From an uncultured Candidatus Saccharibacteria bacterium (GTDB lineage Bacteria; Patescibacteriota; Minisyncoccia; CAZCIQ01): a DNA stretch of 25,277 nt. How positions within the stretch are numbered: the first letter of the stretch is position 1; every line of letters starts with the position of its first letter. Positions 3,366 through 24,074 of the stretch are shown piece by piece. A program made the position numbers and the translations under genes. The notes under the pieces were generated by a model that was given only the letters and a program-made list of their open reading frames with translations, was not told the DNA's origin and did no database searches. Location of the stretch: the NCBI GenBank assembly GCA_964499175.1, contig CAZCIQ010000005.1, positions 12,331 through 37,607 of the forward strand. The letters run 5' to 3'.

Positions 3366-6300
3366 ATGAAAAAAAATTGTAAAACAAAAAATAAAATTAA
3401 TTTTAAAATAAAAAATTATTTTTTAATATTTGTAATTCTTCAAATTACAATTTCGCCTTTAATATCGTTTGCGGCACCGGCAGCAGCGCCTGTAAATGAT
3501 TTTAAAAATTTTGAAAAAACCATAGGAGACGTGCCCTGTGATTTAAAAGTAAGCTGCTGGGTGGTGTCGGTGATGGCTTGGATTGGTTATAGAATACTTC
3601 AAATAGTAAATGTCTTTTTTTATGTGTCTGTCCAAATTTTTAACCTAAGCGCTAATTTATCTCTTAATTATGCCGCTTACAGCAAAAATACCGCCGTTGC
3701 CGTATATAACGGCTGGAAATTAGCCCGCGACTTTATGAATCTGTTTTTCATATTCGTAATTCTTTTCATAGCCATATCAATAATACTCCAGCTTCATACT
3801 TATGGTTCTCAAAAAGTTCTTTTTAGGCTGATTGGAGTCGCGATTTTCATAAATTTCAGCTTTTTTGTAACCCAGCAAGTTATAGTCGCTTCAAATTCAA
3901 TGGCTTTGTTTTTTGCGAAATCCAATGACGTAAGCGTGTTTTCTTCTCCTATCGTAACGGCTCTTAATCCTCAAAACACTTTAAAAGGCTATCATATAAC
4001 AGTTAAATCAATAGCCGAATCAACTAAAAAAATGGACGTGGAACAACGAAAGAAAGTCTGTGAAGATGTATATACTGACGCAAAAATTACAAGCATAGAT
4101 ATAAAAAATTGCGACCCATTAGTACCAAATTGTGGATTCGGTAAGGCGGAAAAAGATCGTTGTTTGGCCGGAGCGGAAAATAAATTAGACGCTAAAAACA
4201 CGGAAGCTATGCTTAAAGATTTAGAGGATAGCTTAAATCCGGAAACCGCTTTGTTGCCTGTCATTATTACCACAATAGGAGGTATTGCCGTGATTCTAAC
4301 TGCTTGTTTTATATTTTTAGCAGGAGCGATTATGTTTGTGCTTAGAACCGTGGTTTTATGGATTCTGCTAATTTTATCTCCAATAGCTTTTATGTCGTTC
4401 GCCTTGCCTAGCGGGGAAAGTTTTATGAGAAAATGGTGGAGCAGACTTTTTAAAGAAGCGTTTTTCGCTCCGGCAATGATGTTTATGCTTTTTATTGTCT
4501 TTAAAATAATTACTTATAAAGACCCAGCAACCAACCTGACTTTTCTTGAAAGATTCGTTCTTCAAAATAATCAAACCGGCATAGGCGAATCATTTGTTTT
4601 TAATTTTTATTTAGTTTTACAATATATATTTCTATTAATCTTGCTTGGAAGCAGTCTAGTGGTGGCCCGAAGTCTTGGAGCAAAAGGATCAAGCGTGGCG
4701 GTAAGCTGGGGTTCCAAAGCCGCTTATTTCGCGGGCGGAGCCGCGGCCGGAGCGCTTATCACAAGACCAGCCAGGCGCTATGCCGCCGGAGCGGCTGAAA
4801 AAATAGCAACTGCCAAACCTGAAGGCCGAGTGGGCAAAGCGTTATCCGGCCTTGCCGGGCTCACCGGCATAACGGCCGCAAGCCGCTTAATTGCCGGTGG
4901 TGAAAAGAAACGAATAGAAGATGTGGAAAAACAATGGAGCAAATATTCTCCCAAAGAAACGGCGGCGTCTATTGGAAGCGGGAAGTTTCTTACGAGAGAA
5001 GGGTTGGTGGGCAGAGTCGGCGCCTTGGCTAAAGAAAATAAACTTGACTTGCTTAAACCCGAACAATTGCGACAGGCTCATAAATATATGAGCCAGCTCG
5101 GAATGGATACTTCTAAAATAGAAACATATATGCCGTCCTTAGCTAAAGATGACGCGGCAAGAGAAAAAGCGATTCAAAGTCAAAGTCCGGATAAAGTCGG
5201 CGGGATTCTTAAAAACACTGAAGAATTCGCTCAAAAAAGAGACGCCGCAGGAAATGTTGTCGGGCCAAACGATAATCAAAAACATCTTGAAAAATATTGG
5301 GGAGAGGGCCACCTTGAAGAAGCCGACAAAGCGGCGCAGACCGACAAAACAGGCAAGACCAAAGAATCTCTTAAAGAATTTTTTGACGCAATGGCGCGCG
5401 AATATAAAACCACAAACTCAGATGATGTTATAAAAGGACTAGAAAGTGAGGGCAAAAAAGCTCTGGCAGATGCCATCCGTAACAAGAGTAAAGGTCTTGG
5501 CGGAACAAAAGATATGGATAAAATTATTCCAGAACTCAATACCACCTTAACACCGCAAGGAAAAATGGATCTAAAAGCCGCCAATCAAAAATACAATCCT
5601 TCAAAAATGGATGACATTACCTCAGGACTTGAAGCTAGAGGAAACTTTAAGTTGGCAAAAGCCTTAAAAACCGAGGAAGGAGAAACGATATTTAAAAAGA
5701 ACGCCACAGGCGGGAAAGACTTTGAAACCGGTTCGCAACTTACGGCGCAAAAAGCAAAACAAACATTACAGCTAAACGACGCGGGCGTGGCGAATATTAT
5801 AAAGGCGGCAATACCGGCGCCGGGAAAAACGGTTTCAGAAGAAGACAAGAAAAAAACCGTTGACACCCTAAATGCCGCGGACACTAAGAGAATGGTTGCT
5901 CTGCTTGAAGAATTAAGCGCGACCGAAAGAAGAGAGTTGCGGCAAATGCTTAAATCCCGAGACGCAAAACTTGAACAAAAAGTCGGAACGGCTGAAAGAG
6001 AAAGAACGGAACAAACTTTGAAATTAGAAGACCAAGAAATCGCGGATAGGATGAAAAAAGTAACGGCAACGTCTTCTGAAGAAGAAAGAAAAGAAGTCGC
6101 GAACATAGGAATAACGGCAAATGACAAAAAACTATTAGAAATTCTGGAAAAATTAAGCCCAAGCGAAAGAAAAGAGCTTAAAAATGTAGCCGATACGACT
6201 GATGTAAAGTTGGCTGAGAGACTAGTGAAATCGTACCCAGAACTTGCGACGCAAAAAACAATAACAATGCCAAACGGCACCACAAAACCTGAAAGCCCTG

Positions 6301-6674
6301 AAGCAGAGCGTCAAAAAGTTTTTGGAAGTATGAAAAAAGAAGATATCCAAAACTTTGATTACGCAGGATTAAAAACCAGAACAACGCCAATTGATTTGGC
6401 GAAAATTATAGACGATATGATAAAATCATTTAATATCGGACATCTTAAAGCATTATATGAAAAAGAAGGCCAAATGCGGGAAGATTTTGTAAACAGATTA
6501 AAAGTAAATGTTGAAAAAGATCTTGGCAAAACACCTTCTTTAGGTGAAGCTCCCGGAAGCACGGTTAACGCCAATGAAATAGCCGATTATATGGCAAAAA
6601 AATTAAAAAGACCTGAAATGGCAAATTCCATAAGAACAGGTCCTAGTGTGCGTGAAATATTAGGCTTACCATAA
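3366..6674 (+). CDS. virB6: VirB6/TrbL-like polytopic T4SS inner-membrane protein, 1102 aa. Signal peptide, about 7-8 TM helices and a large loop in the first ~430 aa. An Ala/Gly-rich linker is followed by a ~650-aa lysine/glutamate-rich hydrophilic C-terminal extension with internal repeats.
   Basis: The hydrophobicity pattern (FLIFVILQITISPLISFAAPAAAP signal, multiple TM blocks, cysteine-rich loop CEDVYTD...NCDPLVPNCGFG) fits VirB6/TrbL topology. Position is upstream of the VirB3-like and VirB4 genes. Family call made by eye. Confidence 0.5.
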   Translation: MKKNCKTKNKINFKIKNYFLIFVILQITISPLISFAAPAAAPVNDFKNFEKTIGDVPCDLKVSCWVVSVMAWIGYRILQIVNVFFYVSVQIFNLSANLSLNYAAYSKNTAVAVYNGWKLARDFMNLFFIFVILFIAISIILQLHTYGSQKVLFRLIGVAIFINFSFFVTQQVIVASNSMALFFAKSNDVSVFSSPIVTALNPQNTLKGYHITVKSIAESTKKMDVEQRKKVCEDVYTDAKITSIDIKNCDPLVPNCGFGKAEKDRCLAGAENKLDAKNTEAMLKDLEDSLNPETALLPVIITTIGGIAVILTACFIFLAGAIMFVLRTVVLWILLILSPIAFMSFALPSGESFMRKWWSRLFKEAFFAPAMMFMLFIVFKIITYKDPATNLTFLERFVLQNNQTGIGESFVFNFYLVLQYIFLLILLGSSLVVARSLGAKGSSVAVSWGSKAAYFAGGAAAGALITRPARRYAAGAAEKIATAKPEGRVGKALSGLAGLTGITAASRLIAGGEKKRIEDVEKQWSKYSPKETAASIGSGKFLTREGLVGRVGALAKENKLDLLKPEQLRQAHKYMSQLGMDTSKIETYMPSLAKDDAAREKAIQSQSPDKVGGILKNTEEFAQKRDAAGNVVGPNDNQKHLEKYWGEGHLEEADKAAQTDKTGKTKESLKEFFDAMAREYKTTNSDDVIKGLESEGKKALADAIRNKSKGLGGTKDMDKIIPELNTTLTPQGKMDLKAANQKYNPSKMDDITSGLEARGNFKLAKALKTEEGETIFKKNATGGKDFETGSQLTAQKAKQTLQLNDAGVANIIKAAIPAPGKTVSEEDKKKTVDTLNAADTKRMVALLEELSATERRELRQMLKSRDAKLEQKVGTAERERTEQTLKLEDQEIADRMKKVTATSSEEERKEVANIGITANDKKLLEILEKLSPSERKELKNVADTTDVKLAERLVKSYPELATQKTITMPNGTTKPESPEAERQKVFGSMKKEDIQNFDYAGLKTRTTPIDLAKIIDDMIKSFNIGHLKALYEKEGQMREDFVNRLKVNVEKDLGKTPSLGEAPGSTVNANEIADYMAKKLKRPEMANSIRTGPSVREILGLP

Positions 6675-6713: not shown

Positions 6714-7604
6714 ATGCAATATACAACAAAACAACTGCAAGAAAAATACAAGTCTTTACCTGAAGATTTAAAAGACGCGATATGGAGCACCGCGTCCGCC
6801 GAAATCATTCAATCCATAGGAAAAAAATACGGTTTAAATGTGGAACAAGTAGGAAAACTGGCTTCGGAAACAGGTCTTGTGCTTTTAGGCTTATCTCATC
6901 CAAAGGATTATATTAAAAGCCTGTCGGCAAACATAACGATTGAGATTGACACAGCAAGAAAAATTGCCGAAGAAGTTAATAATGGAATCTTTTCAAAAGT
7001 TAAAGAACACTTAAAAAAATTACATGGAATAGATACGGGAATTCCCCAACCAATAGCGCCGGAAAAAAAACAAGAATTTCAAAAACCAATATCACCCTCT
7101 CCGATTTCACCACTACCTCCGCATTCTCCGTCTCCGCTTTCATCTTCTCCGCCTAAAAATCCTTTAGAGCTTTTTCAAAAACACGAACTGGAAAAACAAA
7201 ATTCCCCTATAAATCCCGTATCAGAAATACAGCCGAAAAAAGAAGTTAGCTTTTTCCCAAAACAAGCAGAACCGCCCGCGTTAATTCTTAAACAAACAGA
7301 GTTGCCGGCGCCAAAATCTGCCGAACCGCCTGCGACAACATCAGCGCCCACTCCCGCGTCAACGCCCCCACCTTTGCAAACACCGAAACCAATTGAGCCG
7401 CCTGCTCCAATAATACCAACGCCGCCAAATAATGTTGTAAAAACATTAGAACCAAATCCGATAAAACAAACGGAAAATCCTTTAATTTTCACTGAAAAAA
7501 TAAGAGAAGAACCGCACAGAGACCAAAGTCAAACAATTGAAATTAAACCGGACGCTTTAAAAATTTACGAAAAAGGAAGCGACCCTTACAGGGAACCGAT
7601 ATAA
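6714..7604 (+). CDS. Hypothetical protein. A ~115-aa N-terminal globular region is followed by a proline/serine-rich low-complexity C-terminal region (PSPISPLPPHSPSPLSSSPP...).
   Basis: 296-aa ORF in the T4SS block. The low-complexity Pro-rich tail is reminiscent of wall-spanning or surface linker regions. Confidence 0.45.
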   Translation: MQYTTKQLQEKYKSLPEDLKDAIWSTASAEIIQSIGKKYGLNVEQVGKLASETGLVLLGLSHPKDYIKSLSANITIEIDTARKIAEEVNNGIFSKVKEHLKKLHGIDTGIPQPIAPEKKQEFQKPISPSPISPLPPHSPSPLSSSPPKNPLELFQKHELEKQNSPINPVSEIQPKKEVSFFPKQAEPPALILKQTELPAPKSAEPPATTSAPTPASTPPPLQTPKPIEPPAPIIPTPPNNVVKTLEPNPIKQTENPLIFTEKIREEPHRDQSQTIEIKPDALKIYEKGSDPYREPI

Positions 7605-8107: not shown

Positions 8108-8716
8108 ATGCCCCAAACATCATCAAAATCAAGCCAGGAATTCGTGCCTATAAAAGAAGTTCGCGACGGCATAGTAGTTCTGAAAAACGGATCTTTCCGC
8201 GCCATACTTATGGCGTCTTCTTTGAATTTTGCTTTAAAATCGCAAGATGAACAAACGGCAATAATTGACCAATATCAAAATTTTTTAAATTCATTGGATT
8301 TTTCTCTGCAAATTTTTGTCCGTTCGCGCCCAATAAACATAAATTCTTACATTGATTATTTAAAAGAACTTGAAAAAGCCCAAATGAACGAACTTTTAAA
8401 AATACAGGCGAGAGAATATATGGAATTTATAAAAACTTTGGTTGAAACGACAAACATCGTTTCAAAAAATTTTTACATATCAATACCCTTTAATCCTCCC
8501 GTATTAGAGCTTAAAAGCGCTGAAAACGTTTTTTCAAAAATAAGCGGCATTTTCACTAAATCCAAATCAAGCCCGGAGCAGCAAAAAGAAATGAAATTTG
8601 ACGAATACAAAGAACAGCTGATCCAAAGAGGGGCGGTGGTGAGCCAAGAGCTGGCGCGCCTCGGCGTGCGGACAGTGCCGCTTGACACCGAAGATGTTGT
8701 TGAATTATTTTACTAG
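8108..8716 (+). CDS. virB4: VirB4/TrbE/CagE-family T4SS ATPase, N-terminal fragment (202 aa) only. It ends in ...RLGVRTVPLDTEDVVELFY and then a stop codon.
   Basis: VPIKEVRDGIVVLKNGSFRAILMASSLNFALKSQDEQTAIIDQYQNFLNSLDFSLQIFVRS is the characteristic N-terminal region of Gram-positive-type VirB4 ATPases (PrgJ/TcpF/Tn916 Orf16-like). The rest of the protein is encoded 4.9 kb downstream at 13598-15403. Confidence 0.55.
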   Translation: MPQTSSKSSQEFVPIKEVRDGIVVLKNGSFRAILMASSLNFALKSQDEQTAIIDQYQNFLNSLDFSLQIFVRSRPININSYIDYLKELEKAQMNELLKIQAREYMEFIKTLVETTNIVSKNFYISIPFNPPVLELKSAENVFSKISGIFTKSKSSPEQQKEMKFDEYKEQLIQRGAVVSQELARLGVRTVPLDTEDVVELFY

Positions 8717-8795
8717 CGTTATAACCCAGGAGAAGAAGAAAAAAGCAAAATACCGACTTTAAATCAGTAAAACGCGCGAATTACGAAATTTCGGA

Positions 8796-8830
8796 TAAAA
8801 TAAAATCCCGTGAACATTCACGGGATATAA
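8796..8830. terminator. Bidirectional rho-independent terminator between convergent genes. Stem atcccgtga / tcacgggat has T/A-rich runs on both sides.
   Basis: Perfect 9-bp inverted repeat at 8796-8804 / 8809-8817 with a 4-nt loop. Plus-strand downstream is ataatttttatt. The minus-strand reading is followed by ttttatttta. Confidence 0.55.
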
Positions 8831-8848
8831 TTTTTATTCTACACTTTT

Positions 8849-10132
8849 TTATTCTTTGTCTTTGAAGCTTTTTATCGCTTCTTGAATGATTTTAACAATA
8901 CCAGCCGTGCCGTCAAACACGGTCAAGTTATCTATATTTTTAAATGCCTCCGTTATCATTTTTTCTGTTAAATCATACTTTACAGCTTCTTCTCCTTTGC
9001 TTATACCCAAAGCCTCTATTCTCGCCTTTTGCCGCAATTCTACTTCTTTTGCATCAATAGCAGCTTGAGTAAAGCCTTCTTTTTCTTGAGCAACTGCCAA
9101 TTTTATTCTTTGCTCTTTTTGAGCCTCAGCATCAATTAAGGTTTTTTCAGCTTGAGCTTCAGCGTTTACAATAGTTTTCACTTTATTGTAAACTGCCGCG
9201 GCGGCATCTTTCATCTCTTGCTTAATTAATACTATCGGGTCCAAATCAATAATTCTTGGATCCCCGACTCCTTCAATACCCCAATCAACAAAAAGAGGGG
9301 TTAAATCATTAATAATTTCTATAGGCAATTCTTTTTTGCCATTTTCCAAAATTGGCTCCATTTCATGACTGCCGCAATATTTTCTAACGGCGGCAATCAT
9401 AAATCCTTTTATAGTGACTCCGTCTTCAACAATTATTTTATTTATAAGATACTTTAACGGATCAACAACCCTCCAAACCAGTTCCATTTTAATAACAATG
9501 TATTTTCTGTCTTTTGTATAAATGTCTAGTGTTGGCCCCTCTTCGTCTTCAGCAGAGCCCACAAGCTCTTTTCTAGACTCTAATGAAAAACGAACCATTT
9601 TATCTATAAAACCATACATCAACATTGGCCCTCTTTTAACTATTCTTATGGGCTTGCCCAAACGAACAAGCACCGCGATTTCCGTTTCACCAACCTTACT
9701 TACGAAAAAAACCCAAAACCAAAAAATCGGGCTTATGAGAAGCGTAAGAGCGCTGTAAGGCCGCGCCTGCGGAACATAAACGATAAACAAAATCGGCGGG
9801 ACAAAACTAAAGGCGCCATATAACAATAAAACAAACGCGCGCGCGATCCACAATATCAGCTTTTGAGAATTATCATCCGAGTCCGGCGAGGTTAAATCAG
9901 GCGGTTCCAAATCAGGCGGTTCCAAATCTGAAATTTCAGGTTCATCCATTTTTCTTCTCCTTTTTGTTAAAATTCTTTTCAATAAGCCGTAAAAGAATTT
10001 TAAAACATCATAAAATGTTTTAAAAAGAAATAACAAAACTACAAGCATCATCTTCACCACAAAACTCAGAACGCTGTAAATTCCATAAGGCAACTTTTTC
10101 AAAAGCCGCGCCACCCAAAGTAAAACATTCAT
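8849..10132 (-). CDS. SPFH / band-7 (stomatin/prohibitin/flotillin-like) membrane protein, 427 aa. N-terminal TM helices, an acidic proline-rich linker, an SPFH domain and a C-terminal coiled-coil.
   Basis: SPFH-like core GETEIAVLVRLGKPIRIVKRGPMLMYGFIDKMVRFSLESRKE...IVIKMELVWRVVDPLKYL. Hydrophobic N-terminal segments. Ala/Glu/Lys-rich C-terminal coiled-coil. Perfect SD AAGGAGG lies 6 nt upstream of the ATG (minus strand). Confidence 0.65.
   Translation of the reverse strand: MNVLLWVARLLKKLPYGIYSVLSFVVKMMLVVLLFLFKTFYDVLKFFYGLLKRILTKRRRKMDEPEISDLEPPDLEPPDLTSPDSDDNSQKLILWIARAFVLLLYGAFSFVPPILFIVYVPQARPYSALTLLISPIFWFWVFFVSKVGETEIAVLVRLGKPIRIVKRGPMLMYGFIDKMVRFSLESRKELVGSAEDEEGPTLDIYTKDRKYIVIKMELVWRVVDPLKYLINKIIVEDGVTIKGFMIAAVRKYCGSHEMEPILENGKKELPIEIINDLTPLFVDWGIEGVGDPRIIDLDPIVLIKQEMKDAAAAVYNKVKTIVNAEAQAEKTLIDAEAQKEQRIKLAVAQEKEGFTQAAIDAKEVELRQKARIEALGISKGEEAVKYDLTEKMITEAFKNIDNLTVFDGTAGIVKIIQEAIKSFKDKE
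9895..9924 (-). repeat. Perfect 15-bp tandem duplication (aaatcaggcggttcc x2), in frame within the SPFH gene. It encodes the EPPDL-EPPDL repeat of the acidic linker.
   Basis: Read directly from sequence. The protein shows SDLEPPDLEPPDLTSPD. Confidence 0.6.
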
Positions 10133-10149
10133 CTATTCCTCCTTTTCTT

Positions 10150-10429
10150 TCCTTTCTTTATTATTAGGATTTTTCTTAAACTACAGGAGTCCGACTCCCG
10201 CAGTTTATCCAAAGTTATCAAAAAACTATTGCTTATATTTCTATACCATAAATAATATTAAAAAGCAATAGTTGACCCCGTTAGAAATATCCAATTACAG
10301 GTTTTGTCAAAAGCATATTTTAAAAAAATTCAATAGCGAGATTTCTAACGGGGTTGACCCAAAATTATTTATTTGTTATTTTGTTATTAGAAGCTGAACA
10401 AAAAATCTTACGCATAAGGAGTTTAAAAA
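10150..10429. promoter_or_regulatory. Divergent promoter region with nested inverted repeats. These are ctattgctt / aagcaatag (10216-10224 / 10253-10261) and ccccgttagaaat / atttctaacgggg (10267-10279 / 10331-10343, 13 bp perfect). Both repeat units are flanked by gTTGACC. A ggagtc-c-gactcc palindrome sits at 10187-10199.
   Basis: Read directly. Lies between the divergently transcribed SPFH gene (minus) and the TM coiled-coil gene (plus). TTGACC at 10344-10349 and tgtcaa at 10293-10298 (TTGACA on minus) are -35-like. Confidence 0.4.
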
Positions 10430-11110
10430 ATGTTGTTTAAAAAATTGTTGTTGGGACTCGCGATTTTTATTTATATTGGAGCAGTGTTGTTAATTTTTGA
10501 TTCATTAAACAAAAAAAATCCAAACGCCGCAGAAAAAACAGAAAAACAAAAAATTACAGCGAAAAAAAATGGTAAAGAACACTCTAAGACAAAAATAAAT
10601 CCAATAGATCTAAAAATAAACAAACTTTTTAGAAAAATCAACAATCGGCTTTCAAGATTGGAAAGAAGCGATAAAAACAAAAAGGAAGATATAAAAAGAA
10701 TAAAACAGTCTTTAGAAGAAATTAAAAATTTTACTTATAATCTAAGCGCTGTAATGGAAGACTTGAATAAGAAAATCAAAGACGACGAAAGCAAGATAGA
10801 AGCCGCGCAAAGAACGGCGGATGACGCTCTTGAAACCATAGAAAATATAATATCAGATTTAGAGACGCTTAATTCACGAATGGAAGAAAATAGAAAAACA
10901 ACCGAAGAAATAAAAAAAAATTCGGACGCAACAACAAAACTGGCTTTAAAAGCCGAAACAACATCTAAAAATGCTGAACTGGTAGCCGAGCAAGCGAAAT
11001 CCTTATCAAGGAAATCAATGGAATCGCTGCGCCAGCACGCCGGCAAAACGTTCTTTGGACATATTCATGACGAAAAAATCATGAAAGACACCAACAATAA
11101 TTTAAAATAA
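10430..11110 (+). CDS. Membrane-anchored coiled-coil protein, 226 aa. One N-terminal TM helix, then a long K/E-rich alpha-helical region.
   Basis: N-terminus LLLGLAIFIYIGAVLLIFD. Remainder has heptad-like charged repeats. SD aaggag lies 9 nt upstream. Followed by a canonical terminator. Confidence 0.5.
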   Translation: MLFKKLLLGLAIFIYIGAVLLIFDSLNKKNPNAAEKTEKQKITAKKNGKEHSKTKINPIDLKINKLFRKINNRLSRLERSDKNKKEDIKRIKQSLEEIKNFTYNLSAVMEDLNKKIKDDESKIEAAQRTADDALETIENIISDLETLNSRMEENRKTTEEIKKNSDATTKLALKAETTSKNAELVAEQAKSLSRKSMESLRQHAGKTFFGHIHDEKIMKDTNNNLK

Positions 11111-11737
11111 ATCTGCTAGCCCCGAGTACTCGGGGCTTTTTTGTTTTAAAAATTCAATCTTTTTATTTATTTCTGAAAAAATCGGCGCGTTTTTCGCTAA
11201 AACATTTATTTTCTCAAGCCTCTTTTTTAAAACAATAAGCGTTTCCTTATATTGTCCGCGGAAAGCGTTTGTAAGTTTCATTATCTCATTTTCCCAATGA
11301 GAATTATTAAAAGAATTGATAAAAGTAGCGAGAAACTCTTCTTCATCTTCTTCGCTGTGGCCGCCATAAGTATGCAGAAATTTCCTTTCGTCTAAATATT
11401 CAAAAAGATATTTGAATGCCAAGAATTTAAAAGTGTTTTTTTCATCTGAAACTTCAATCGGCGTCCATTTATTTTTCAAATCAAGAAAATTAGTTTTAAA
11501 TTCACCTTGGCTTATTTTGTATTCATAATCAAATAAATGCATTGACTCGTGAAACGCGGTTTCAAATAAATCAAACGAAAGATCCTTTTCGCTATCTTTA
11601 AGCTTTGCGTAATGAAAAGCAACGGCGCTTCTGTCTTTTTTGTTAAAAAAGGCGTTATTGGTTGTTGAATCAACCACATATAACTGCTTTGTTTTTTCTC
11701 CCTTTTTAAATCCGAATAGATTTTCCGCTTTTTGCAT
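11102..11737 (-). CDS. Putative zinc metallopeptidase-like protein with an HExxH motif (FHESMHLF), 211 aa.
   Basis: HESMH motif plus downstream acidic/His residues (HTYGGHSEEDEEE). No other family signature recognised. Last gene of a three-gene minus-strand operon. Confidence 0.4.
   Translation of the reverse strand: MQKAENLFGFKKGEKTKQLYVVDSTTNNAFFNKKDRSAVAFHYAKLKDSEKDLSFDLFETAFHESMHLFDYEYKISQGEFKTNFLDLKNKWTPIEVSDEKNTFKFLAFKYLFEYLDERKFLHTYGGHSEEDEEEFLATFINSFNNSHWENEIMKLTNAFRGQYKETLIVLKKRLEKINVLAKNAPIFSEINKKIEFLKQKSPEYSGLADLF
11113..11147 (+). terminator. Rho-independent terminator gccccgagtactcggggc + ttttttgtttt. It is embedded in the 3' coding end of the convergent minus-strand gene.
   Basis: Perfect 7-bp GC stem with a 4-nt loop, followed by a T-run. 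The same bases encode ...SPEYSGL... of the 211-aa minus-strand ORF. Confidence 0.7.
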
Positions 11738-11767
11738 TCCACGCTCTATATGAGGAAAAAGACGGCT

Positions 11768-13231
11768 TCACTTTTTTTTTTCATTATGATTCAAATTTCC
11801 GTAAACTCCGTATTCATTATTGCTTCCCAAAAAAAATATCGGCTTCTCTTCTCTGGCAAAGAACAAATCTTTTAGTTCACCGGCTCCCAAAAACTCCGTT
11901 TCAATATTAAGCGGCTCCACAAACTCTTTAGAATCTTTATTCTTCTTAAACTTAATTGGAGGCCAAATCGTAATAGTTTTATCTATTTTACTTTTATCAT
12001 AATTATTTTGCGCGATATATTTTGTTATGTAATTTCCAAATTTATCAAAACGCGACGAGAAGCTCGGCTTTTCGGAAGAGGAAAGCGAATACTTTTCAAA
12101 TTTAATTTCTTCTATTTGACCGTTTATATTTAAAGGATATTCAATTTTTTTAAAATCTTCGCTGTTTAAAGTTAAATCTATTTCTTCTTCCGCGGGGCGG
12201 CCTTCAAAAGCCAATTTTACGCTAACCGCGTCAAAATTATTTGAAAGATTAATAATCGCTTCTTTTTGTTCTTCATTTAATTTCTTTGTTTTAATTGCCC
12301 TAATAAATACATCGGATTCATTTAAAGTCTTGGGATTTATTTCATCCAAAGAATGTTGAAGGTTTTCCATTTTTTCAAACCCTTCTTTTAAAATTATTTT
12401 TATTTCTTGAACGGCTTGATCAAGTTTATCCGTTTTTACCGCCTTATAATAAAGAAATGGGTTTTGTAAATCCAGCCAGTTTTTTAATATTATTAAAAAA
12501 TCGTTGTTTATATTTTTAATTTCCAGAGAAAACGGCGATATTTTAATATTTTTTTCCAATGGCATTATTTCCGCGGAAAAATAACGCTTAGAATCCATGT
12601 CAAGATAATCAAGAACATCTTCGGATATTATGCTATTTACTATAAGTTCTTTTCCCCCTAAAATACTTTTAGACAATTTATTAAAAATTTCCTCTTCTGT
12701 TTCTTCATTTTGAAATTCAATATTAGCGCTTATACCACTCTCAATTTCAAATTTATGTCCAAGCGCTTTATATAAAGCTATATTATTTTTTAATTTAAGA
12801 TTATCTTCTTTGGCTTTAAGTTCCAATGTAAAATATAATTTTTCCTCAAACGAGCTTCTGCCTATTTTTTCAACCATTATAGGCCTTGCTCTCGCTTGAG
12901 GCAAAGAACTGCTTACCAAAGCATTGCTTAATCTGCAAAAATATAAAAGCCCCGCTAAAACTAACGCCTTATTTACCATTCTTTCGTTTATTTTTCTGCC
13001 TATCTTTGTCAAAAATCCTTCAGAATCTTTGCGAAGCCCGCTTTCTTTAACTTCCCACATTTTTAACAATTCTTCCTCGGTGGTTTTGTCTTCAATTATA
13101 GCATCGGAAATGCCCTCTTCAGATTGTTCTTCATTTCCACCCCCTTTTTCCAAAAATTCTGATTCGTCTTTTTCTTCAAGATTTTCCTTAAACTTTAAAC
13201 CCGCCTTGTCGGCGGACAAATTATTTTTCAT
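11768..13231 (-). CDS. Hypothetical 487-aa protein with an acidic N-terminal region. No recognisable domain.
   Basis: Long uninterrupted ORF. Overlaps the upstream 85-aa ORF by 11 bp and lies 30 bp upstream of the HExxH gene, giving an operon arrangement. Confidence 0.45.
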   Translation of the reverse strand: MKNNLSADKAGLKFKENLEEKDESEFLEKGGGNEEQSEEGISDAIIEDKTTEEELLKMWEVKESGLRKDSEGFLTKIGRKINERMVNKALVLAGLLYFCRLSNALVSSSLPQARARPIMVEKIGRSSFEEKLYFTLELKAKEDNLKLKNNIALYKALGHKFEIESGISANIEFQNEETEEEIFNKLSKSILGGKELIVNSIISEDVLDYLDMDSKRYFSAEIMPLEKNIKISPFSLEIKNINNDFLIILKNWLDLQNPFLYYKAVKTDKLDQAVQEIKIILKEGFEKMENLQHSLDEINPKTLNESDVFIRAIKTKKLNEEQKEAIINLSNNFDAVSVKLAFEGRPAEEEIDLTLNSEDFKKIEYPLNINGQIEEIKFEKYSLSSSEKPSFSSRFDKFGNYITKYIAQNNYDKSKIDKTITIWPPIKFKKNKDSKEFVEPLNIETEFLGAGELKDLFFAREEKPIFFLGSNNEYGVYGNLNHNEKKK

Positions 13232-13478
13232 AGCTTTCTTTTATTAACTCCGCTAAAATTTTATTTACTTGTTCTTTTTCGTATTCATAAACATCCAAAA
13301 CCGCGCGTTTGTCTTTTTTCTTTAGCGCTTCAATTTTTTTATAAAAAAGCTTTTCCAAATAAGAAAAAGTTTCGGGATTTTTGCTGAAAAATTCGCTTAA
13401 AACAAACTTTTCCCGCAACGGCAGTTTAGAAAAAGCTCCTAAAAAGAGATTGCTTTGTGTTTGTTTGGTTTTTAACAT
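13221..13478 (-). CDS. Small hypothetical protein (85 aa). First gene of the minus-strand operon.
   Basis: ORF translationally overlapped with the 487-aa ORF. Charged and helical in character. Confidence 0.3.
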   Translation of the reverse strand: MLKTKQTQSNLFLGAFSKLPLREKFVLSEFFSKNPETFSYLEKLFYKKIEALKKKDKRAVLDVYEYEKEQVNKILAELIKESYEK

Positions 13479-13560
13479 AATTCAAAATTGCTTATTACTA
13501 TTTTAAATATAACAAAGAAAATAGCCGATACGCAAATTAAGCTGGTGCTTTGAATTTCCG

Positions 13561-13592
13561 TTGTAAAGATATTCGCCTTTTGGTATTATTAA
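13561..13592 (+). promoter_or_regulatory. Candidate sigma70-type promoter for the VirB4 C-fragment. -35 TTGTAA (13561-13566), 17-bp spacer, extended -10 TGgTATTAT (13581-13589). The -10 ends ~8 nt before the ATG at 13598, so the transcript may be leaderless or nearly so.
   Basis: Motif spacing read directly. No SD upstream of the ATG. Confidence 0.3.
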
Positions 13593-13597
13593 ATAAA

Positions 13598-15403
13598 ATG
13601 TCTTTATTTCAAAAAACAAAAATTGAAAAAAACGAAGATGACAAAATAATACCGGTATTTCCCGAGGAAATTTATAAAGAAGCCGTTTTGGAATTGCAGG
13701 ATATAATCGCTCCCTCGGCTCTTGAAATAAGTTCAAATCACATAAGACTCGGTGAAAAATATTGCAGAACGATATTTATATTTTCTTATCCGCGGTTTGT
13801 TTCAACCGGCTGGCTTTCGCCAATTATAAACCTTGATAAAATTTTTGACATATCAATATTCATTCATCCCATAAGCACCTCTTCCATATTAAGAAAGCTG
13901 CAAAACAAAACCGCCGCGGTGCAGGCGCAAATAAGCGAAAGGGAAGACAAAGGATTCGTCCGCGATCCAATGCTTGACACCGCCTATCAAGACTTGGAAG
14001 ACTTAAGAGATAAACTAATGCAGGCAACGGAAAAAATATTTGACGTAGGGCTTTACATTACGGTCTACGCCGATTCGCTGGAAGACTTAAATAAAGCCGA
14101 AACAGAAATAAGATCAATACTTGAAGCGCGTCTTGTCTACGCCAAACCGGCTCTTTTTGAACAAAAAGAAGGGCTTGAGAGCGTGTTTCCTCTTTCAACC
14201 GATTCGCTTGGCATAAGTTCAAAACTTAACACCGCTCCTCTTTCAAGCATTTTTCCTTTTGTGTCTTTTGACTTAACTTCTAATAAAGGGATTCTCTACG
14301 GCATAAACCGCCACAACAGCAGTTTAATTTTGTTTGACAGATATTCAATGGAAAATTACAATTCCGTTGTTTTTGCCAAAGCCGGCGCCGGAAAAAGTTA
14401 TTTCAGCAAACTGGAAATATTGCGCTCATTAATGATTGGCGCCGAAGTGATAGTCATAGACCCTGAAAGAGAATACGAACACTTGGCGGAAACTGTCGGC
14501 GGAAGTTTTTTTAAAATATCCCTGACTTCGGAGCACCACATAAATCCTTTTGACTTGCCGCCTCCAAGAGAAGACGAATCGCCATCGGATATTTTACGAA
14601 GCAACATCATAAACTTAATCGGCATCTTAAGAATTATGCTGGGAAGCATCACTCCCGAGGAAGACTCCATACTTGATAAAGCGATAACGGAAACTTACGC
14701 CTCGCGCGACATAACTCCTGACGCCGATTTTTCAAACAGGCCCGTACCGATTTTATCGGATTTGGAAATGATTCTGGCAGGAATGGCGGGCGGAGAAGAT
14801 TTAGCTCAGCGCCTTAAAAAATTTACGACAGGCACGTGGGCCGGATTTATAAACCAGCCGACAAATGTTGAAATAAATAAAAAATTAACCGTTTTTTCAA
14901 TAAGAGATATGGAAGACGAATTACGTCCTGTCGCTATGTATCTCATAATACACCACATCTGGAATGAAGTGCGGAGAGAAATTAAAAAAAGACTTTTGGT
15001 GGTGGACGAGGCTTGGTGGATGATGAAATCAGAGGACGGAGCTTCGTTTCTTTACGGCTTGGCGAAAAGAGCGAGAAAATATTTTTTAGGGCTTTCCACG
15101 ATTACCCAAGATGTCGGCGACTTTTTAAGTTCGCCCTACGGCAAACCTATAATAACAAACTCCTCAATACAAATCCTTCTAAAGCAGTCTCCCGCCACGA
15201 TAGAAACTCTTAAAGAAGTTTTTAATTTGACGGACGAAGAAAAATTCATACTTTTGGAATCTGATGTGGGAGAAGGAATATTTTTTGCCGGGCTAAAACA
15301 CGCGGCAATAAAAGTAGTGGCGTCTTACACCGAAGACCAAATTATCACAACCGATCCGGCTCAACTTTTAGAGATTAAAAAAGCGAGAGAGGAGTTGAGT
15401 TAA
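13598..15403 (+). CDS. virB4: VirB4/TrbE/CagE-family T4SS ATPase, C-terminal ~600 aa (CagE_TrbE_VirB region plus AAA ATPase). The probable start is ATG 13598. The ORF track's TTG start at 13550 lies upstream of the putative promoter.
   Basis: IAPSALEISSNHIRLGEKYCRTIFIFSYPRFVSTGWLSPIINLD...DISIFIHPI is the conserved VirB4 middle region. Walker A is VVFAKAGAGKSYFSK and Walker B is RLLVVDEAWWMM. It lacks the ~200-aa N-terminal region that is encoded at 8108-8716. Confidence 0.8.
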   Translation: MSLFQKTKIEKNEDDKIIPVFPEEIYKEAVLELQDIIAPSALEISSNHIRLGEKYCRTIFIFSYPRFVSTGWLSPIINLDKIFDISIFIHPISTSSILRKLQNKTAAVQAQISEREDKGFVRDPMLDTAYQDLEDLRDKLMQATEKIFDVGLYITVYADSLEDLNKAETEIRSILEARLVYAKPALFEQKEGLESVFPLSTDSLGISSKLNTAPLSSIFPFVSFDLTSNKGILYGINRHNSSLILFDRYSMENYNSVVFAKAGAGKSYFSKLEILRSLMIGAEVIVIDPEREYEHLAETVGGSFFKISLTSEHHINPFDLPPPREDESPSDILRSNIINLIGILRIMLGSITPEEDSILDKAITETYASRDITPDADFSNRPVPILSDLEMILAGMAGGEDLAQRLKKFTTGTWAGFINQPTNVEINKKLTVFSIRDMEDELRPVAMYLIIHHIWNEVRREIKKRLLVVDEAWWMMKSEDGASFLYGLAKRARKYFLGLSTITQDVGDFLSSPYGKPIITNSSIQILLKQSPATIETLKEVFNLTDEEKFILLESDVGEGIFFAGLKHAAIKVVASYTEDQIITTDPAQLLEIKKAREELS

Positions 15404-22092: not shown

Positions 22093-22365
22093 TTTTATTT
22101 TTTTAATATTTAACCCTGCGGAAAAAGAGGGGATAAGTATTTAAAAACTGTGAATAAAAATTTTTTGAAAAGCAAAATTTATTTTTTAAAAAACTAACAC
22201 ACAGTTTTTAAAAAAGTTTTCAGTAAGTTTTACCCAAACATTAAATAAAAATAATTTTAAATCGCAATATTATTTTTAGTTTTAAACACTTTCCACAGGG
22301 TTTATTACTATTATTAATATAATATTAATTAAATTATTTATTAATAAATAATAAAATGAATTTAT
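22093..22365. promoter_or_regulatory. dnaA-dnaN intergenic region. 273 bp, extremely AT-rich. Candidate DNA-unwinding element and second oriC segment. Degenerate DnaA boxes tgtgaataa (22149-22157) and tttccaca (22289-22296).
   Basis: AT-rich runs such as attattaatataatattaattaaattatttattaataaataataaa. One-mismatch and two-mismatch DnaA boxes read directly. Confidence 0.4.
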
Positions 22366-23499
22366 ATGGAAGTAAAAATTTCAAAAACTAATTTATTTAA
22401 AATAACGGCACTAGCTGAAAAAATAAGTGGTAAAAATTTAAATTTGCCTATTTTAAATTCTTTTCTTATTTCGGCACAAAAAGGAAAAATAAAAATCAGC
22501 AGCACTAATCTTGAAATTGGTTTTGAAATATGCGCGCCGGCCCAAATAATTCAGGAAGGAAAAATAGTGGTTCCGGCCAAAATAATGAATAATTTGGTAT
22601 CCAACATAAAAGACGATGTAATACAATTAAAACAAGAAGGGTTAAACTTAAAAATCATCACAGGCGGTGCTTCGATTATTTTAAAAACCAATTCTTTAGA
22701 TGATTTTCCGATAATGCCGCAAATAAAAAAAGATTCTTTTTTTAAAATGAAAATATCCGACCTATTATCGGGAATAAAATCAGCGCTTTTCGCCGCTTCT
22801 ATTTCTAATTTCAAGCCGGAATTGGCAAGCGTTTATTTTTATAACACAAAAGAAGAACATGTGTTTGTGGCGACCGACTCTTTTAGATTAATGGAAAAAA
22901 AAATTCCAAATAAAGAAAATAAAAATCAGCAAGAATTTTCTCTGCTTTTGCCTATAAAAACATCTTTTGAACTCGCGCGAATTTTGGAAGATTTAAATAA
23001 AGAAGAAGAAAGTAATTTAGAAGTATGTTATAATAAAAATGAATTTCAGGTTTCAAACGACAATTTCATTTTTTTCTCGCGCCTTACCGACGGAGCTTTC
23101 GTAAATTATACAGAGTTTATGCCAAAAGAGTTTTTAGGAGAAATTGTCGTTGATAACAAAGAATTAACAAGTGTTTTAAAAACAGCGAATATTTTTCTAA
23201 GCAGATTAAATGATGTTGTTTTAGAAATAAATTTAAAAAATAATGTTTTTAAGTTGAAAACGTCAAACCCAGAGCTAGGAGAATTTTCATCAATTTTAAA
23301 AATGACAAAAAGAGGATTTGGCAATACAAAGCAGGAAAAAATAAAATTGACTTTTAACCTTAAATATTTACTTGAAGGAATAAATCAAATCAATTCCGCG
23401 TTTTCAATTTTAAAATTTAGCGGAGAAGGAAAACCATTGGTAATCCAAGGAGATGACAACAAAAACAGCTCTTACCTGGTTATGCCCATGAAAATATGA
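22366..23499 (+). CDS. dnaN: DNA polymerase III beta sliding clamp DnaN.
   Basis: 377 aa. MEVKISKTNLFKITALAEKISGKNLNLPILNSFLISAQKGKIKISSTNLEIG fits the DnaN N-terminal pattern. Directly downstream of dnaA. Confidence 0.85.
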   Translation: MEVKISKTNLFKITALAEKISGKNLNLPILNSFLISAQKGKIKISSTNLEIGFEICAPAQIIQEGKIVVPAKIMNNLVSNIKDDVIQLKQEGLNLKIITGGASIILKTNSLDDFPIMPQIKKDSFFKMKISDLLSGIKSALFAASISNFKPELASVYFYNTKEEHVFVATDSFRLMEKKIPNKENKNQQEFSLLLPIKTSFELARILEDLNKEEESNLEVCYNKNEFQVSNDNFIFFSRLTDGAFVNYTEFMPKEFLGEIVVDNKELTSVLKTANIFLSRLNDVVLEINLKNNVFKLKTSNPELGEFSSILKMTKRGFGNTKQEKIKLTFNLKYLLEGINQINSAFSILKFSGEGKPLVIQGDDNKNSSYLVMPMKI

Positions 23500-24074
23500 A
23501 ACCATCGCCACATTATCACTTAAAATATAAAATATGCGTATCCGGAGCAGCTGAAACGGATTGCTGTTCTGTGGATGCCTTAGACAAAGCAAAAGAGCTT
23601 GGCAGAGAAATTGCCAGAAGAAATTTAATTTTGGTAAATGGCGCCACAACTGGCTTTCCTTTTTGGTCTGCGATAGGCGCAAAAGAAGAAAATGGCTGGG
23701 TTATAGGAATTTCTCCGGCTTTTTCAGAGAAAGATCATATTTTAAATTATAATCTCCCGATAGATTACACGGATATGATTGTTTATACAGGGTCCGGCTA
23801 TTCAGGAAGAAATTTAATACTTACAAGAGCTTCTGATGCAATGGTGGTTGGATGTGGAAGAATGGGAACTTTAAATGAATTTACGATAGCTTTTGAAGAC
23901 AAAAAGCCTATTGGAGTTCTTTTGGGGCTGGGTGGCACCACAGACTTAATAAAAGAAATAATAGAAAAGTCGCATCGCGGAGGAGAAACAAATGTTGTTT
24001 ATGATTCTGATCCAAAAGTTCTATTGGACAAATTAATTCCACTCATTAAAAACGAAAAAATAATAGAAGCTTAA
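23496..24074 (+). CDS. LOG / TIGR00725-family Rossmann-fold protein (SLOG-type, cytokinin-riboside-phosphate phosphoribohydrolase-like).
   Basis: 192 aa. KICVSGAAE... is Rossmann-like. The GCGRMGTLNEFT motif resembles the LOG-family GGxGTxxE motif. Overlaps the dnaN stop by 4 bp. Confidence 0.55.
   Translation: MKPSPHYHLKYKICVSGAAETDCCSVDALDKAKELGREIARRNLILVNGATTGFPFWSAIGAKEENGWVIGISPAFSEKDHILNYNLPIDYTDMIVYTGSGYSGRNLILTRASDAMVVGCGRMGTLNEFTIAFEDKKPIGVLLGLGGTTDLIKEIIEKSHRGGETNVVYDSDPKVLLDKLIPLIKNEKIIEA

What the first reader, a model, noticed from the sequence alone, without database searches (positions are those of the whole stretch)
8717..13597. Candidate undescribed membrane-associated gene module nested inside the T4SS locus (SPFH protein, TM coiled-coil, HExxH protein, 487-aa acidic protein, 85-aa protein)
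The 4.9-kb block between the VirB4 halves forms a self-contained unit. An SPFH/band-7 protein (minus) and a TM-anchored coiled-coil protein (plus) are divergently transcribed from a structured intergenic region. A three-gene minus-strand operon (85 aa -> 487 aa -> 211-aa HExxH putative metallopeptidase) converges on them. The module has bidirectional terminators at both convergent junctions. The SPFH and coiled-coil genes carry perfect AAGGAGG/AAGGAG Shine-Dalgarno sequences, whereas most surrounding genes (dnaA, dnaN, the virB4 pieces, the VirB6-like gene) have no obvious SD. This suggests a different evolutionary origin. Pairing an SPFH scaffold with a membrane protease is a known theme (HflK/C-FtsH, stomatin-NfeD), but this gene set (HExxH, a large acidic protein and a coiled-coil protein, with no NfeD) is not a described system. 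Its placement inside a secretion ATPase gene suggests a mobile or conflict-related cargo.
Basis: partly seen in the sequence, partly recalled or inferred. Interest (0 to 1): 0.7.

Follow-up and report, generated by a model that had tools for sequence, protein, structure and literature searches.

The report
Accessory genes inserted between trsD and virB4
The five genes are real, but they are not one module cut into a secretion ATPase gene: they are a patchwork of accessory membrane-protein genes sitting in the spacer between two normally separate secretion-system genes of an ultra-small (Patescibacteria) bacterium, and one of them is a broken copy of a rare, unnamed zinc-protease-like gene.

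Summary
The interpretation mostly fails.

- **The "VirB4 halves" are two normal genes.** They are trsD (VirB4-N-like, about 220 aa) and virB4. This is the standard gene pair of the origin-proximal Patescibacteria type IV secretion locus. The 120 best of more than 7,500 homologues are all stand-alone proteins of 202-249 aa.
- **The block is composite.** Six of eight distinct relatives have trsD directly followed by virB4. The closest relative (87% TrsD identity) has only the SPFH gene at this site. That gene is under purifying selection (dN/dS 0.14).
- **The remaining 3.27 kb (10278-13549) is specific to this genome.** It holds an orphan membrane coiled-coil gene and a two-gene cassette.
- **The "487-aa" and "211-aa HExxH" ORFs are one gene of about 709 codons.** A single in-frame TGA splits it, and TGA is a normal stop codon in this window. 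Intact homologues of 650-890 aa follow a homologous small ORF in other genomes. None of those loci has a T4SS, SPFH or coiled-coil neighbour.
- **The large protein is a new zincin-like family.** HExxH is invariant, there is no Pfam match, and fold similarity to M1 aminopeptidases and YbeY is weak.
- **There is no sign of mobility or defence.** I found no recombinase, terminal repeats, clear target duplication or defence-system hits.

Verdict: ordinary lineage-specific accessory insertions, with a modestly interesting rare protease-like cassette.

The parts
8108..8716 (+). trsD (stand-alone VirB4 N-domain-like, 'TraC-like' PF26593 protein). It is truncated to 202 aa by a TAG at 8714-8716. The old reading frame continues as RYNPGEEEKSKIPTLNQ to the ancestral stop at 8768-8770.
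   Evidence: NCBIfam profiles conju_CD1110 (positions 2-137), VirB4_plasma and TrsD match. The 120 best homologues are all 202-249 aa stand-alone proteins. L001 and L010 have GAG/GAA (Glu) where the window has TAG.
8805..8826 (.). Bidirectional intrinsic-terminator hairpin between trsD and the SPFH gene.
   Evidence: The scan scored it on both strands. A hairpin at the same position in L001 has compensatory stem changes (CCCGTGAAC.. against CCCGTCCAC..).
8849..10132 (-). HflK/C-like SPFH (Band 7) membrane protein, 427 aa. The start equivalent to the L001 gene is Met62 (ATG 9947-9949), which has its own AAGGAG.
   Evidence: PF01145 scores 52.6 bits. HflK TIGR01933 gives E 3.6e-13 but is below its cutoff. 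PDB sequence matches are HflK and QmcA. It is 71% identical to the L001 gene at the same site, with dN/dS 0.14. TM-like segments lie at residues 18-47, 93-118 and 127-145.
9998..10224 (-). A 227-bp stretch absent from L001. It supplies a second SD plus ATG and a 61-aa N-terminal extension with an extra TM segment for the SPFH ORF. It looks like a partial duplication of the gene's 5' part.
   Evidence: blastn breakpoints. Residues 3-32 resemble residues 92-118 (score 49 against 26.6 +/- 5.0; 3 of 2000 shuffles reach it).
10271..10358 (.). Long hairpin (14-bp perfect inverted repeat ACCCCGTTAGAAAT; 18 pairs as RNA) in the SPFH/coiled-coil divergent spacer. Its left arm starts at the junction of the window-specific DNA.
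   Evidence: Folding gives -29.3 kcal/mol, z = -5.4. The repeat is unique in the window and absent from all fetched loci.
10278..13549 (.). 3,272 bp present in the window but absent from the closest relative L001. Junctions read TTGACC|... and ...|TTGAAT, against a single TTGACC in L001.
   Evidence: blastn of L001 against the window, read directly and aligned. The junction repeat is not significant.
10430..11110 (+). Orphan bitopic membrane coiled-coil protein, 226 aa, with an N-terminal TM at residues 6-24, SD TAAGGAG and its own terminator.
   Evidence: Only sub-threshold coiled-coil-type matches were found (DUF3450, SMC/Rad50, IcmG/DotF 24.9 bits against a cutoff of 200). There is no relative in any fetched locus or in viral contigs. 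Hydropathy is and the SD.
11118..11137 (+). Terminator-like hairpin AGCCCCGAGTACTCGGGGCT followed by a T-run, after the coiled-coil gene. It lies within the last codons of the convergent minus-strand gene.
11102..13231 (-). One gene of about 709 codons for a membrane-anchored zincin-like protein. It has an acidic N-terminal tail, a TM-like segment at residues 89-107, a mixed alpha/beta and beta-rich middle region, and a C-terminal HExxH domain. An in-frame TGA at 11768-11770 splits it into the '487-aa' and '211-aa' ORFs.
13221..13478 (-). Small helical 85-aa protein, the first gene of the cassette. It overlaps the start of the large gene by 11 nt.
   Evidence: Homologous small ORFs lie directly upstream of the large homologue in L009 (48% identity, E 1e-19), L007/L008 (42%) and L006 (31%, E 8e-13). 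It has no Pfam or PDB relatives.
13598..15403 (+). virB4 (T4SS ATPase, 601 aa). It is complete as in relatives and 96% identical to the L001 gene.
   Evidence: conju_CD1110 scores 355 bits against a cutoff of 325, covering profile positions 183-728. Relatives are 597-603 aa.

Best explanation
**What the interval is.** The 4.9-kb interval is a patchwork of lineage-specific accessory genes. It sits in the short spacer between trsD and virB4, two adjacent and normally separate genes of the conserved, origin-proximal type IV secretion locus of Patescibacteria.

**Layer 1 (shown).** An HflK/C-like SPFH membrane-scaffold gene lies on the opposite strand. The closest relative has it at the same site, and it is kept by purifying selection.

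**Layer 2 (shown).** A further 3.27 kb is found only in this genome. It carries:
- an orphan bitopic coiled-coil membrane protein gene;
- a two-gene cassette made of a small helical protein and a membrane-anchored zincin-like protein of about 709 aa.

The large cassette gene is interrupted by one nonsense codon. That codon produces the apparent 487-aa and 211-aa HExxH ORFs.

**How the parts probably work (inferred).**
- The SPFH protein probably oligomerises in the membrane as other SPFH proteins do. It may organise or quality-control membrane complexes, possibly including the T4SS it is encoded within.
- In intact homologues of the cassette, the positively charged stretch before the single TM segment suggests that the acidic N-terminal tail stays in the cytoplasm, where it could meet the small partner protein. 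The HExxH domain would then lie outside the cell as a surface metalloprotease.
- In this genome the catalytic fragment would lack its membrane anchor. The gene is therefore most likely recently inactivated.

The five genes do not form one functional or mobile system.
For: **trsD and virB4 are separate genes in the clade**
- The two pieces match successive parts of VirB4 profiles (positions 2-137 and 183-728 of conju_CD1110) and the stand-alone TrsD model.
- More than 7,500 homologues were found, and the best 120 are all stand-alone proteins of 202-249 aa.
- In L002-L005, L010, L011/L012 and L018, trsD is followed directly by virB4, next to jag-yidC-rnpA-dnaA where the locus reaches that far.
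- The literature reports 2,272 TrsD homologues in Patescibacteria, 1,664 of them next to virB4, with the T4SS near dnaA (PMC12102498).

**The block is composite**
- L001 has trsD, then Band_7 on the minus strand, then virB4, and nothing else.
- blastn breakpoints place the window-specific DNA at 10278-13549.
- SPFH has dN/dS 0.14, similar to its neighbours at 0.12-0.28.

**The 487-aa and 211-aa ORFs are one gene**
- They share a frame, separated by a single TGA.
- Fused homologues exist.
- TGA terminates dnaN and rnpA in the window.

**The cassette is independent of the rest**
- In L006, L007/L008 and L009, a homologous small ORF plus the large gene sit in non-T4SS contexts with no SPFH or coiled-coil neighbour.

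**The large protein is zincin-like**
- HExxH is invariant in 13 of 13 homologues, along with further conserved acidic and His residues.
- The best fold matches in three libraries are M1 aminopeptidases and YbeY.
Against: - **Polarity is unresolved.** One gain of the whole block followed by a 3.27-kb loss in L001 needs as many events as two successive gains. SPFH and the coiled-coil gene share strong SD sites and a divergent spacer, which could mean they arrived together.
- **Sampling is thin.** Only one close relative with SPFH was found.
- **SPFH searches came back empty.** Two scans of genome contigs and one of viral contigs found no further SPFH relatives. I do not know where this SPFH gene came from, or whether it is linked to a T4SS elsewhere.
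- **The in-frame stops could be sequencing errors.** Both the TGA and the TAG in trsD come from a metagenome-assembled contig. In both cases the sequence downstream of the stop is still perfectly open and conserved.
- **All functional statements are inferences from family membership.**
Confidence: 0.75

Rival explanations
1. One reading: the five genes form one self-contained module, possibly mobile or conflict-related. In it an SPFH scaffold partners with an HExxH protease, and the module was inserted into the virB4 gene and split it.
For: - The block is absent from most relatives.
- It is bounded by terminators and has distinctive SD usage.
- SPFH-protease pairings are an established theme (HflK/C-FtsH, stomatin-NfeD; general knowledge).
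Against: - virB4 is not split by the block. trsD and virB4 are separate genes clade-wide (PMC12102498).
- L001 keeps SPFH alone under purifying selection.
- Cassette homologues elsewhere lack SPFH and the coiled-coil gene.
- The protease-like gene is broken by a stop codon here.
- There is no recombinase, no terminal inverted repeats, no significant flanking direct repeat, and no PADLOC, PHROG, plasmid or phage matches.
Confidence: 0.05
2. This is the same patchwork with a different history. The whole 4.9-kb block, or at least the SPFH plus coiled-coil divergent pair, entered the trsD-virB4 spacer in one event in the common ancestor of the window genome and L001. L001 later deleted 3.27 kb.
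For: - The number of events equals that of two successive gains.
- SPFH and the coiled-coil gene are the only genes in the block with strong SD sites, and they share a divergent promoter region.
- Both window junctions resemble the single L001 spacer. That pattern is what a deletion between short repeats would leave.
Against: - GC of SPFH (37.4%) matches the T4SS genes. The other four genes are at 29.5-32%.
- The left and right junction copies are not significantly similar to each other (355 of 2000 shuffles reach the score).
- Part of the similarity is a motif that also occurs upstream of dnaN.
- L001 holds no remnant of the other genes.
Confidence: 0.3
3. The in-frame TGA in the zincin-like gene and the TAG in trsD are assembly or sequencing errors, or they are read through. 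Both genes would then be intact and functional in the organism.
For: - In both cases the downstream reading frame is fully open and still conserved at the protein level. That covers 221 codons after the TGA, and 17 codons ending at the ancestral stop after the TAG.
- The source is a metagenome-derived contig whose proteins are singletons in the database.
Against: - Both are clean base substitutions and not homopolymer frameshifts.
- TGA and TAG are used as normal stops in the window.
- Two independent errors of this kind within 3 kb would be unusual in a consensus assembly.
- A recent nonsense mutation predicts the same pattern.
Confidence: 0.25
4. The SPFH gene is a genuine accessory component of this lineage's T4SS, acting as a membrane-microdomain scaffold for machine assembly. 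On this view it was recruited into the operon and is not a neutral insertion.
For: - It is encoded inside the T4SS locus in two diverged genomes (dS about 0.5-1.5) and kept by purifying selection at the same rate as other T4SS structural genes.
- Flotillin scaffolds T7SS assembly in S. aureus (PMC5718613).
- The A. tumefaciens T4SS and T6SS sit in SPFH-containing detergent-resistant membranes (PMC8656257; title and abstract seen).
Against: - It is on the opposite strand, with its own promoter and terminator, so it is not co-transcribed with the T4SS genes.
- It is absent from six of eight relatives with the same T4SS.
- SPFH is not mentioned in the main text of the published Patescibacteria T4SS survey, nor in its two supplementary files held as text.
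Confidence: 0.2

Closest known systems
Patescibacteria origin-proximal T4SS (MPF-FATA-like; trsD-virB4-prgI/virB3-virB6-pilin), as surveyed in PMC12102498
   Same: - The gene set and order match: PrgI, TrsD, VirB4, a VirB6-like large membrane protein and a T4SS pilin.
- There is no relaxase in the window.
- The locus lies next to jag-yidC-rnpA-dnaA-dnaN.
   Different: This genome and one relative carry extra non-T4SS genes in the trsD-virB4 spacer. trsD also has a premature TAG that removes its last 18 residues.
TrsD/TrsE of staphylococcal plasmids pGO1/pSK41 (stand-alone VirB4 N-domain protein plus VirB4)
   Same: A separate protein of about 200 aa, homologous to the VirB4 N-terminus, is encoded next to the ATPase (NF041427 match).
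   Different: The score (33.8 bits) is far below the family cutoff of 200. This system is chromosomal and has no relaxase.
HflK/HflC and other prokaryotic SPFH proteins (QmcA, flotillins)
   Same: It has N-terminal membrane segments, an SPFH domain and an Ala/Glu/Gln-rich C-terminal helix. The best sequence matches are HflK (TIGR01933 E 3.6e-13; PDB 7vhq, 7vhp) and QmcA.
   Different: - It scores below the HflK equivalog cutoffs.
- It is a single gene with no HflC-like partner and no NfeD.
- It has an acidic Pro/Asp/Ser-rich N-terminal stretch.
- In the window it has an extra duplicated N-terminal TM segment.
Zincin metallopeptidases, in particular M1 aminopeptidases (ERAP1, LTA4H, PepN) and the minimal zincin-like hydrolase YbeY
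   Same: HExxH sits on a helix, preceded by a beta-rich region. These are the best structural matches in three libraries.
   Different: - There is no GxMEN motif and no Glu 18 residues after HExxH.
- The motif here is HExxHxxD, with conserved E615, G624-H625 and E632 lying 50-67 residues downstream.
- No Pfam, NCBIfam or PDB sequence match was found.
- The protein is membrane-anchored and has a small upstream partner gene.

Membership tests
VirB4 (CD1110-type conjugal-transfer ATPase) and its stand-alone N-domain partner TrsD | The ATPase protein reaches the curated family score. | tested here: met
   NF045971 conju_CD1110 scores 355.4 bits against a cutoff of 325 for 13598-15403.
VirB4 (CD1110-type conjugal-transfer ATPase) and its stand-alone N-domain partner TrsD | The N-domain protein is a separate gene in relatives, not a fragment produced by the insertion. 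| tested here: met
   The top 120 homologues are all 202-249 aa. Eight distinct syntenic loci all have separate trsD and virB4 ORFs. PMC12102498 reports the same.
VirB4 (CD1110-type conjugal-transfer ATPase) and its stand-alone N-domain partner TrsD | The TrsD curated model cutoff is reached. | tested here: not met
   NF041427 scores 33.8 bits against a cutoff of 200 (E 2.8e-8). This is a homologue, but not a member of the staphylococcal subfamily.
SPFH / Band 7 | The SPFH domain scores above Pfam's gathering threshold. | tested here: met
   PF01145 scores 52.6 bits against 23.6, covering residues 146-328 and the whole profile.
HflK/HflC-FtsH system | The HflK equivalog score is reached, and an adjacent paired HflC gene is present. 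| tested here: not met
   TIGR01933 scores 49.6 bits against a cutoff of 159.4, and NF008181 scores 36.3 against 660. The window and L001 each hold only one SPFH gene at this site.
Stomatin-NfeD operon | An NfeD-family gene lies adjacent to the SPFH gene. | tested here: not met
   No neighbouring ORF has an NfeD match in Pfam or NCBIfam.
Zincin metallopeptidases (clan MA-like) | An HExxH motif is conserved across the family. | tested here: met
   H561, E562 and H565 are invariant in 14 aligned sequences.
Zincin metallopeptidases (clan MA-like) | A third metal ligand is identified and the fold is zincin-like. | tested here: inconclusive
M1 aminopeptidases | A GxMEN exopeptidase motif and the HExxH-x18-E spacing are present. 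| tested here: not met
   There is no GxMEN. The column 19 residues after the second His is not conserved and is Asp in the window. There is no PF01433 hit.
Mobile element (IS, transposon or integrative element) | A recombinase or transposase gene, terminal inverted repeats and a target-site duplication are present. | tested here: not met
   - None of the five ORFs has a recombinase family match.
- There are no terminal repeats at 8717/13597 or 10278/13549.
- The junctions share only TTGA. The similarity between the junctions is not significant.
Known anti-phage defence systems | PADLOC models match. | tested here: not met
   The only hits are sub-threshold coiled-coil matches (JetC, SngA and similar) for the coiled-coil protein. 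The other four proteins have none.

The most novel reading that the evidence does not exclude
The cassette of an 85-aa protein plus a membrane-anchored zincin-like protein of about 700 aa may be a new, rare two-gene system of ultra-small bacteria. It could be a surface protease for host interaction that is controlled or chaperoned from the cytoplasm by its small partner. On this reading it moves between genomes without its own recombinase. The trsD-virB4 spacer would then be a site where this lineage's T4SS collects accessory envelope proteins, including an SPFH scaffold that works with the machine.
Probability: 0.12. Interest if true: 0.5.

Novelty: new member of a known kind. Interest (0 to 1): 0.25.

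Why it matters
Its main value is as a correction. A stand-alone VirB4-N-like gene next to virB4 is the normal state in Patescibacteria and should not be read as a gene split by an insertion.

Three smaller points remain of interest:
- The essential, origin-proximal T4SS locus of these reduced genomes tolerates lineage-specific insertions between its genes: SPFH here, a PIN toxin-antitoxin pair in L018, and HicAB at the locus edge in L001.
- An SPFH gene kept under selection inside a T4SS locus is a cheap lead for asking whether SPFH scaffolds assist T4SS assembly in epibiotic bacteria.
- The large protein defines an unnamed zincin-like family with a conserved small partner. Only about 14 cluster representatives exist among 1.8 billion, so it is a candidate for a new peptidase family entry.

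Tried and rejected
- **Exact look-ups.** Four look-ups for the TrsD piece and the 487-aa ORF (by window coordinates and as P0001) were not on record.
- **Word-indexed homology searches.** The 487-aa and 211-aa ORFs found only themselves. The full HMMER scan was needed to find the family.
- **AF2 of the 211-aa ORF alone.** The model was useless (pLDDT 38).
- **Further SPFH relatives.** Two scans of genome contigs and one of viral contigs found nothing. The origin of the SPFH gene is therefore unknown.
- **Coiled-coil protein.** There were no relatives in viral contigs or in any fetched locus. I rejected the IcmG/DotF match (24.9 bits against 200) as coiled-coil bias.
- **UGA recoding.** Rejected, because dnaN, rnpA and the first ORF end in TGA.
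- **Compositional foreignness.** GC3 of the block lies within the spread of the core genes.
- **Flanking duplication or att site.** Each junction resembles the L001 spacer, but the two junctions do not resemble each other significantly. Part of the signal is a motif also found upstream of dnaN.
- **Other negatives.** Rfam and tRNA scans of the window were empty. Plasmid and phage collections gave no match. The afdb50 fold library was unavailable. PDB and Pfam searches for the small protein were uninformative.

Full report
**Setting.** The window is a low-GC (35%) chromosomal segment. It carries jag-yidC-rnpA on the minus strand, followed by dnaA, dnaN and a SLOG protein. Upstream lies a monoderm-type T4SS locus: a TSP3-repeat protein, two large membrane or surface proteins, PrgI/VirB3, a VirB4-N-like protein, VirB4, and a T4SS pilin. 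The closest named homologues come from Giovannonibacteria and other Parcubacteria. A T4SS beside dnaA is the published arrangement for Paceibacteria and Microgenomatia (PMC12102498).

**Checking the observation.** All five ORFs exist at the stated coordinates.
- The SPFH call is sound. PF01145 scores 52.6 bits against a cutoff of 23.6, and the best sequence relatives are HflK and QmcA.
- The 226-aa protein has one N-terminal TM segment and gives only coiled-coil-type sub-threshold matches.
- The 211-aa ORF carries HESMH.
- The Shine-Dalgarno observation holds. Of 23 genes, only SPFH, the coiled-coil gene and yidC have a strong site.
- The divergent spacer contains a stable hairpin (z = -5.4).
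- Terminator-like hairpins lie at 8805-8826 (scored on both strands) and at 11118-11137. The first is conserved in the relative L001 with compensatory stem changes.

**The "VirB4 halves".** The 202-aa protein matches positions 2-137 of the CD1110 VirB4 profile, and also the stand-alone TrsD model. The 601-aa protein matches positions 183-728 and passes that family's cutoff.
- A search with the 202-aa protein found more than 7,500 homologues. The best 120 are all stand-alone proteins of 202-249 aa.
- In every syntenic locus I fetched, trsD and virB4 are separate ORFs.
- In six of eight distinct relatives they are directly adjacent, 5-120 nt apart: L002-L004, L005, L010, L011/L012 and L018.
- The literature reports 2,272 TrsD homologues in Patescibacteria, mostly next to virB4, and one that is essential in Southlakia.
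- So nothing split virB4. The block sits in an intergenic spacer.

**The block is composite.** The closest relative, L001 (TrsD 87% and VirB4 96% identical), has trsD, then a minus-strand Band_7 gene, then virB4, and nothing else.
- blastn places the breakpoints precisely. L001 11428-11481 equals window 10225-10277, and L001 11476-13324 equals window 13550-15396. Hence 10278-13549 (3,272 bp) is specific to the window.
- The next relative, L010 (80%), lacks even SPFH.
- SPFH is a working gene. Between the window and L001 its dN/dS is 0.14, similar to neighbouring T4SS genes at 0.12-0.28.
- Upstream of the L001-equivalent start (Met62), the window has an extra 227 bp. This adds a second SD and a 61-aa extension resembling the protein's own first TM region.

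**The "487-aa" and "211-aa HExxH" ORFs are one gene.** Word-indexed searches found no homologues. A full HMMER scan found 14, and 11 of the 13 genuine ones are 650-890 aa long.
- Their C-termini align with the 211-aa ORF.
- In the window the two ORFs share a frame. One TGA (11768-11770) and ten sense codons separate them.
- TGA terminates dnaN, rnpA and the first ORF, so it is not recoded.
- The gene therefore carries a nonsense mutation, or possibly a sequencing error.
- trsD has a comparable lesion. A TAG sits where L001 and L010 have Glu, and the ancestral tail and stop still follow in frame.

**The cassette.** In L006, L007/L008 and L009 the large homologue is immediately preceded by a small ORF of 76-83 aa that is homologous to the window's 85-aa protein (31-48% identity).
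- The contexts are unrelated. L006 sits between hrcA-grpE and corA-cysS, and L009 sits near a SHOCT protein.
- None has a T4SS, SPFH or coiled-coil neighbour.
- More distant homologues of the HExxH domain (L013-L017) lack the small ORF. Two of them lie near type IV pilus genes.

**What the large protein is.** HExxH is invariant in all 13 homologues, as are D568, E615, G624-H625, E632 and W646.
- No Pfam, NCBIfam or PDB sequence match exists.
- An AF2 model built on the 14-sequence alignment reached pLDDT 75.6 and pTM 0.65.
- These matches are weak but consistent with a zincin-like catalytic domain behind a beta-rich region.
- The M1 signatures (GxMEN, and Glu at +18) are absent.
- A single weakly hydrophobic TM-like segment (residues 89-107), preceded by a positively charged stretch, suggests a cytoplasmic N-tail and an external catalytic domain. 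This topology is an inference.

**Mobility and defence.**
- None of the five ORFs matches a recombinase or any other mobile-element family.
- There are no terminal repeats.
- The junctions share only TTGA(CC/AT). Each junction resembles the L001 spacer, but the two do not resemble each other significantly. Part of the signal is a motif that is also exact upstream of dnaN.
- PADLOC, PHROGs, plasmid and phage searches were negative.
- Composition is unremarkable.

**Limits.**
- With only two genomes carrying SPFH, I cannot tell stepwise gain from a single gain followed by loss in L001.
- SPFH relatives could not be retrieved from the genome or viral collections.
- All functions are inferred.

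**Verdict.** The "module inside a split ATPase gene" reading is not supported. What is there is a set of lineage-specific accessory membrane-protein genes in the trsD-virB4 spacer, one of them a nonsense-interrupted member of a rare, unnamed zincin-like family with a conserved small partner.

Noticed in passing
window 8714-8770: trsD ends at a TAG where the relatives L001 and L010 have Glu (GAG/GAA). The ancestral last 17 codons and the ancestral stop (8768-8770) follow in frame. This is either a very recent nonsense mutation in a gene reported as essential in Southlakia, or a sequencing error.
   Followed up: partly
window 9998-10224: A 227-bp stretch absent from L001 gives the SPFH ORF a second SD (AAGGAGG) and a 61-aa extension with an extra TM segment. 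The extension resembles residues 92-118 of the same protein, so it looks like a partial 5' duplication. An extra TM segment would invert the topology if translated.
   Followed up: partly
window 13493-13512 and 22303-22322: The motif TATTACTATTnnnAATATAA occurs exactly upstream of virB4 and of dnaN. Diverged copies lie in the SPFH/virB4 spacer of L001 and at window 10227-10246. It may be a promoter element of this lineage.
   Followed up: partly
L018 3847-4495; L001 131-614: Other relatives carry toxin-antitoxin pairs in or beside the same T4SS locus. L018 has a 78-aa ORF plus a PIN protein between the VirB6-like gene and the next T4SS gene. L001 has HicB/HicA at the locus edge. The locus seems to tolerate small accessory insertions.
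   Followed up: no
L015 9101-13210; L014 12629-13540: Distant homologues of the HExxH domain lie next to type IV pilus genes. In L015 these are pilN, pilO, pilC and pilins directly downstream. In L014 pilM lies 4 kb away. This may be coincidence or a link to surface machinery.
   Followed up: no
window 3366-6674 and 6714-7604: The 1102-aa VirB6-like protein has a long Lys/Glu-rich, repeat-like C-terminal half with strong AT skew. It is 115 aa longer than in L001. The following 296-aa protein has a Pro-rich low-complexity centre. Neither matches a Pfam family.
   Followed up: no
window 23496-24074: A SLOG cluster4 (LDcluster4) protein is encoded directly after dnaN, overlapping its stop codon.
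   Followed up: no
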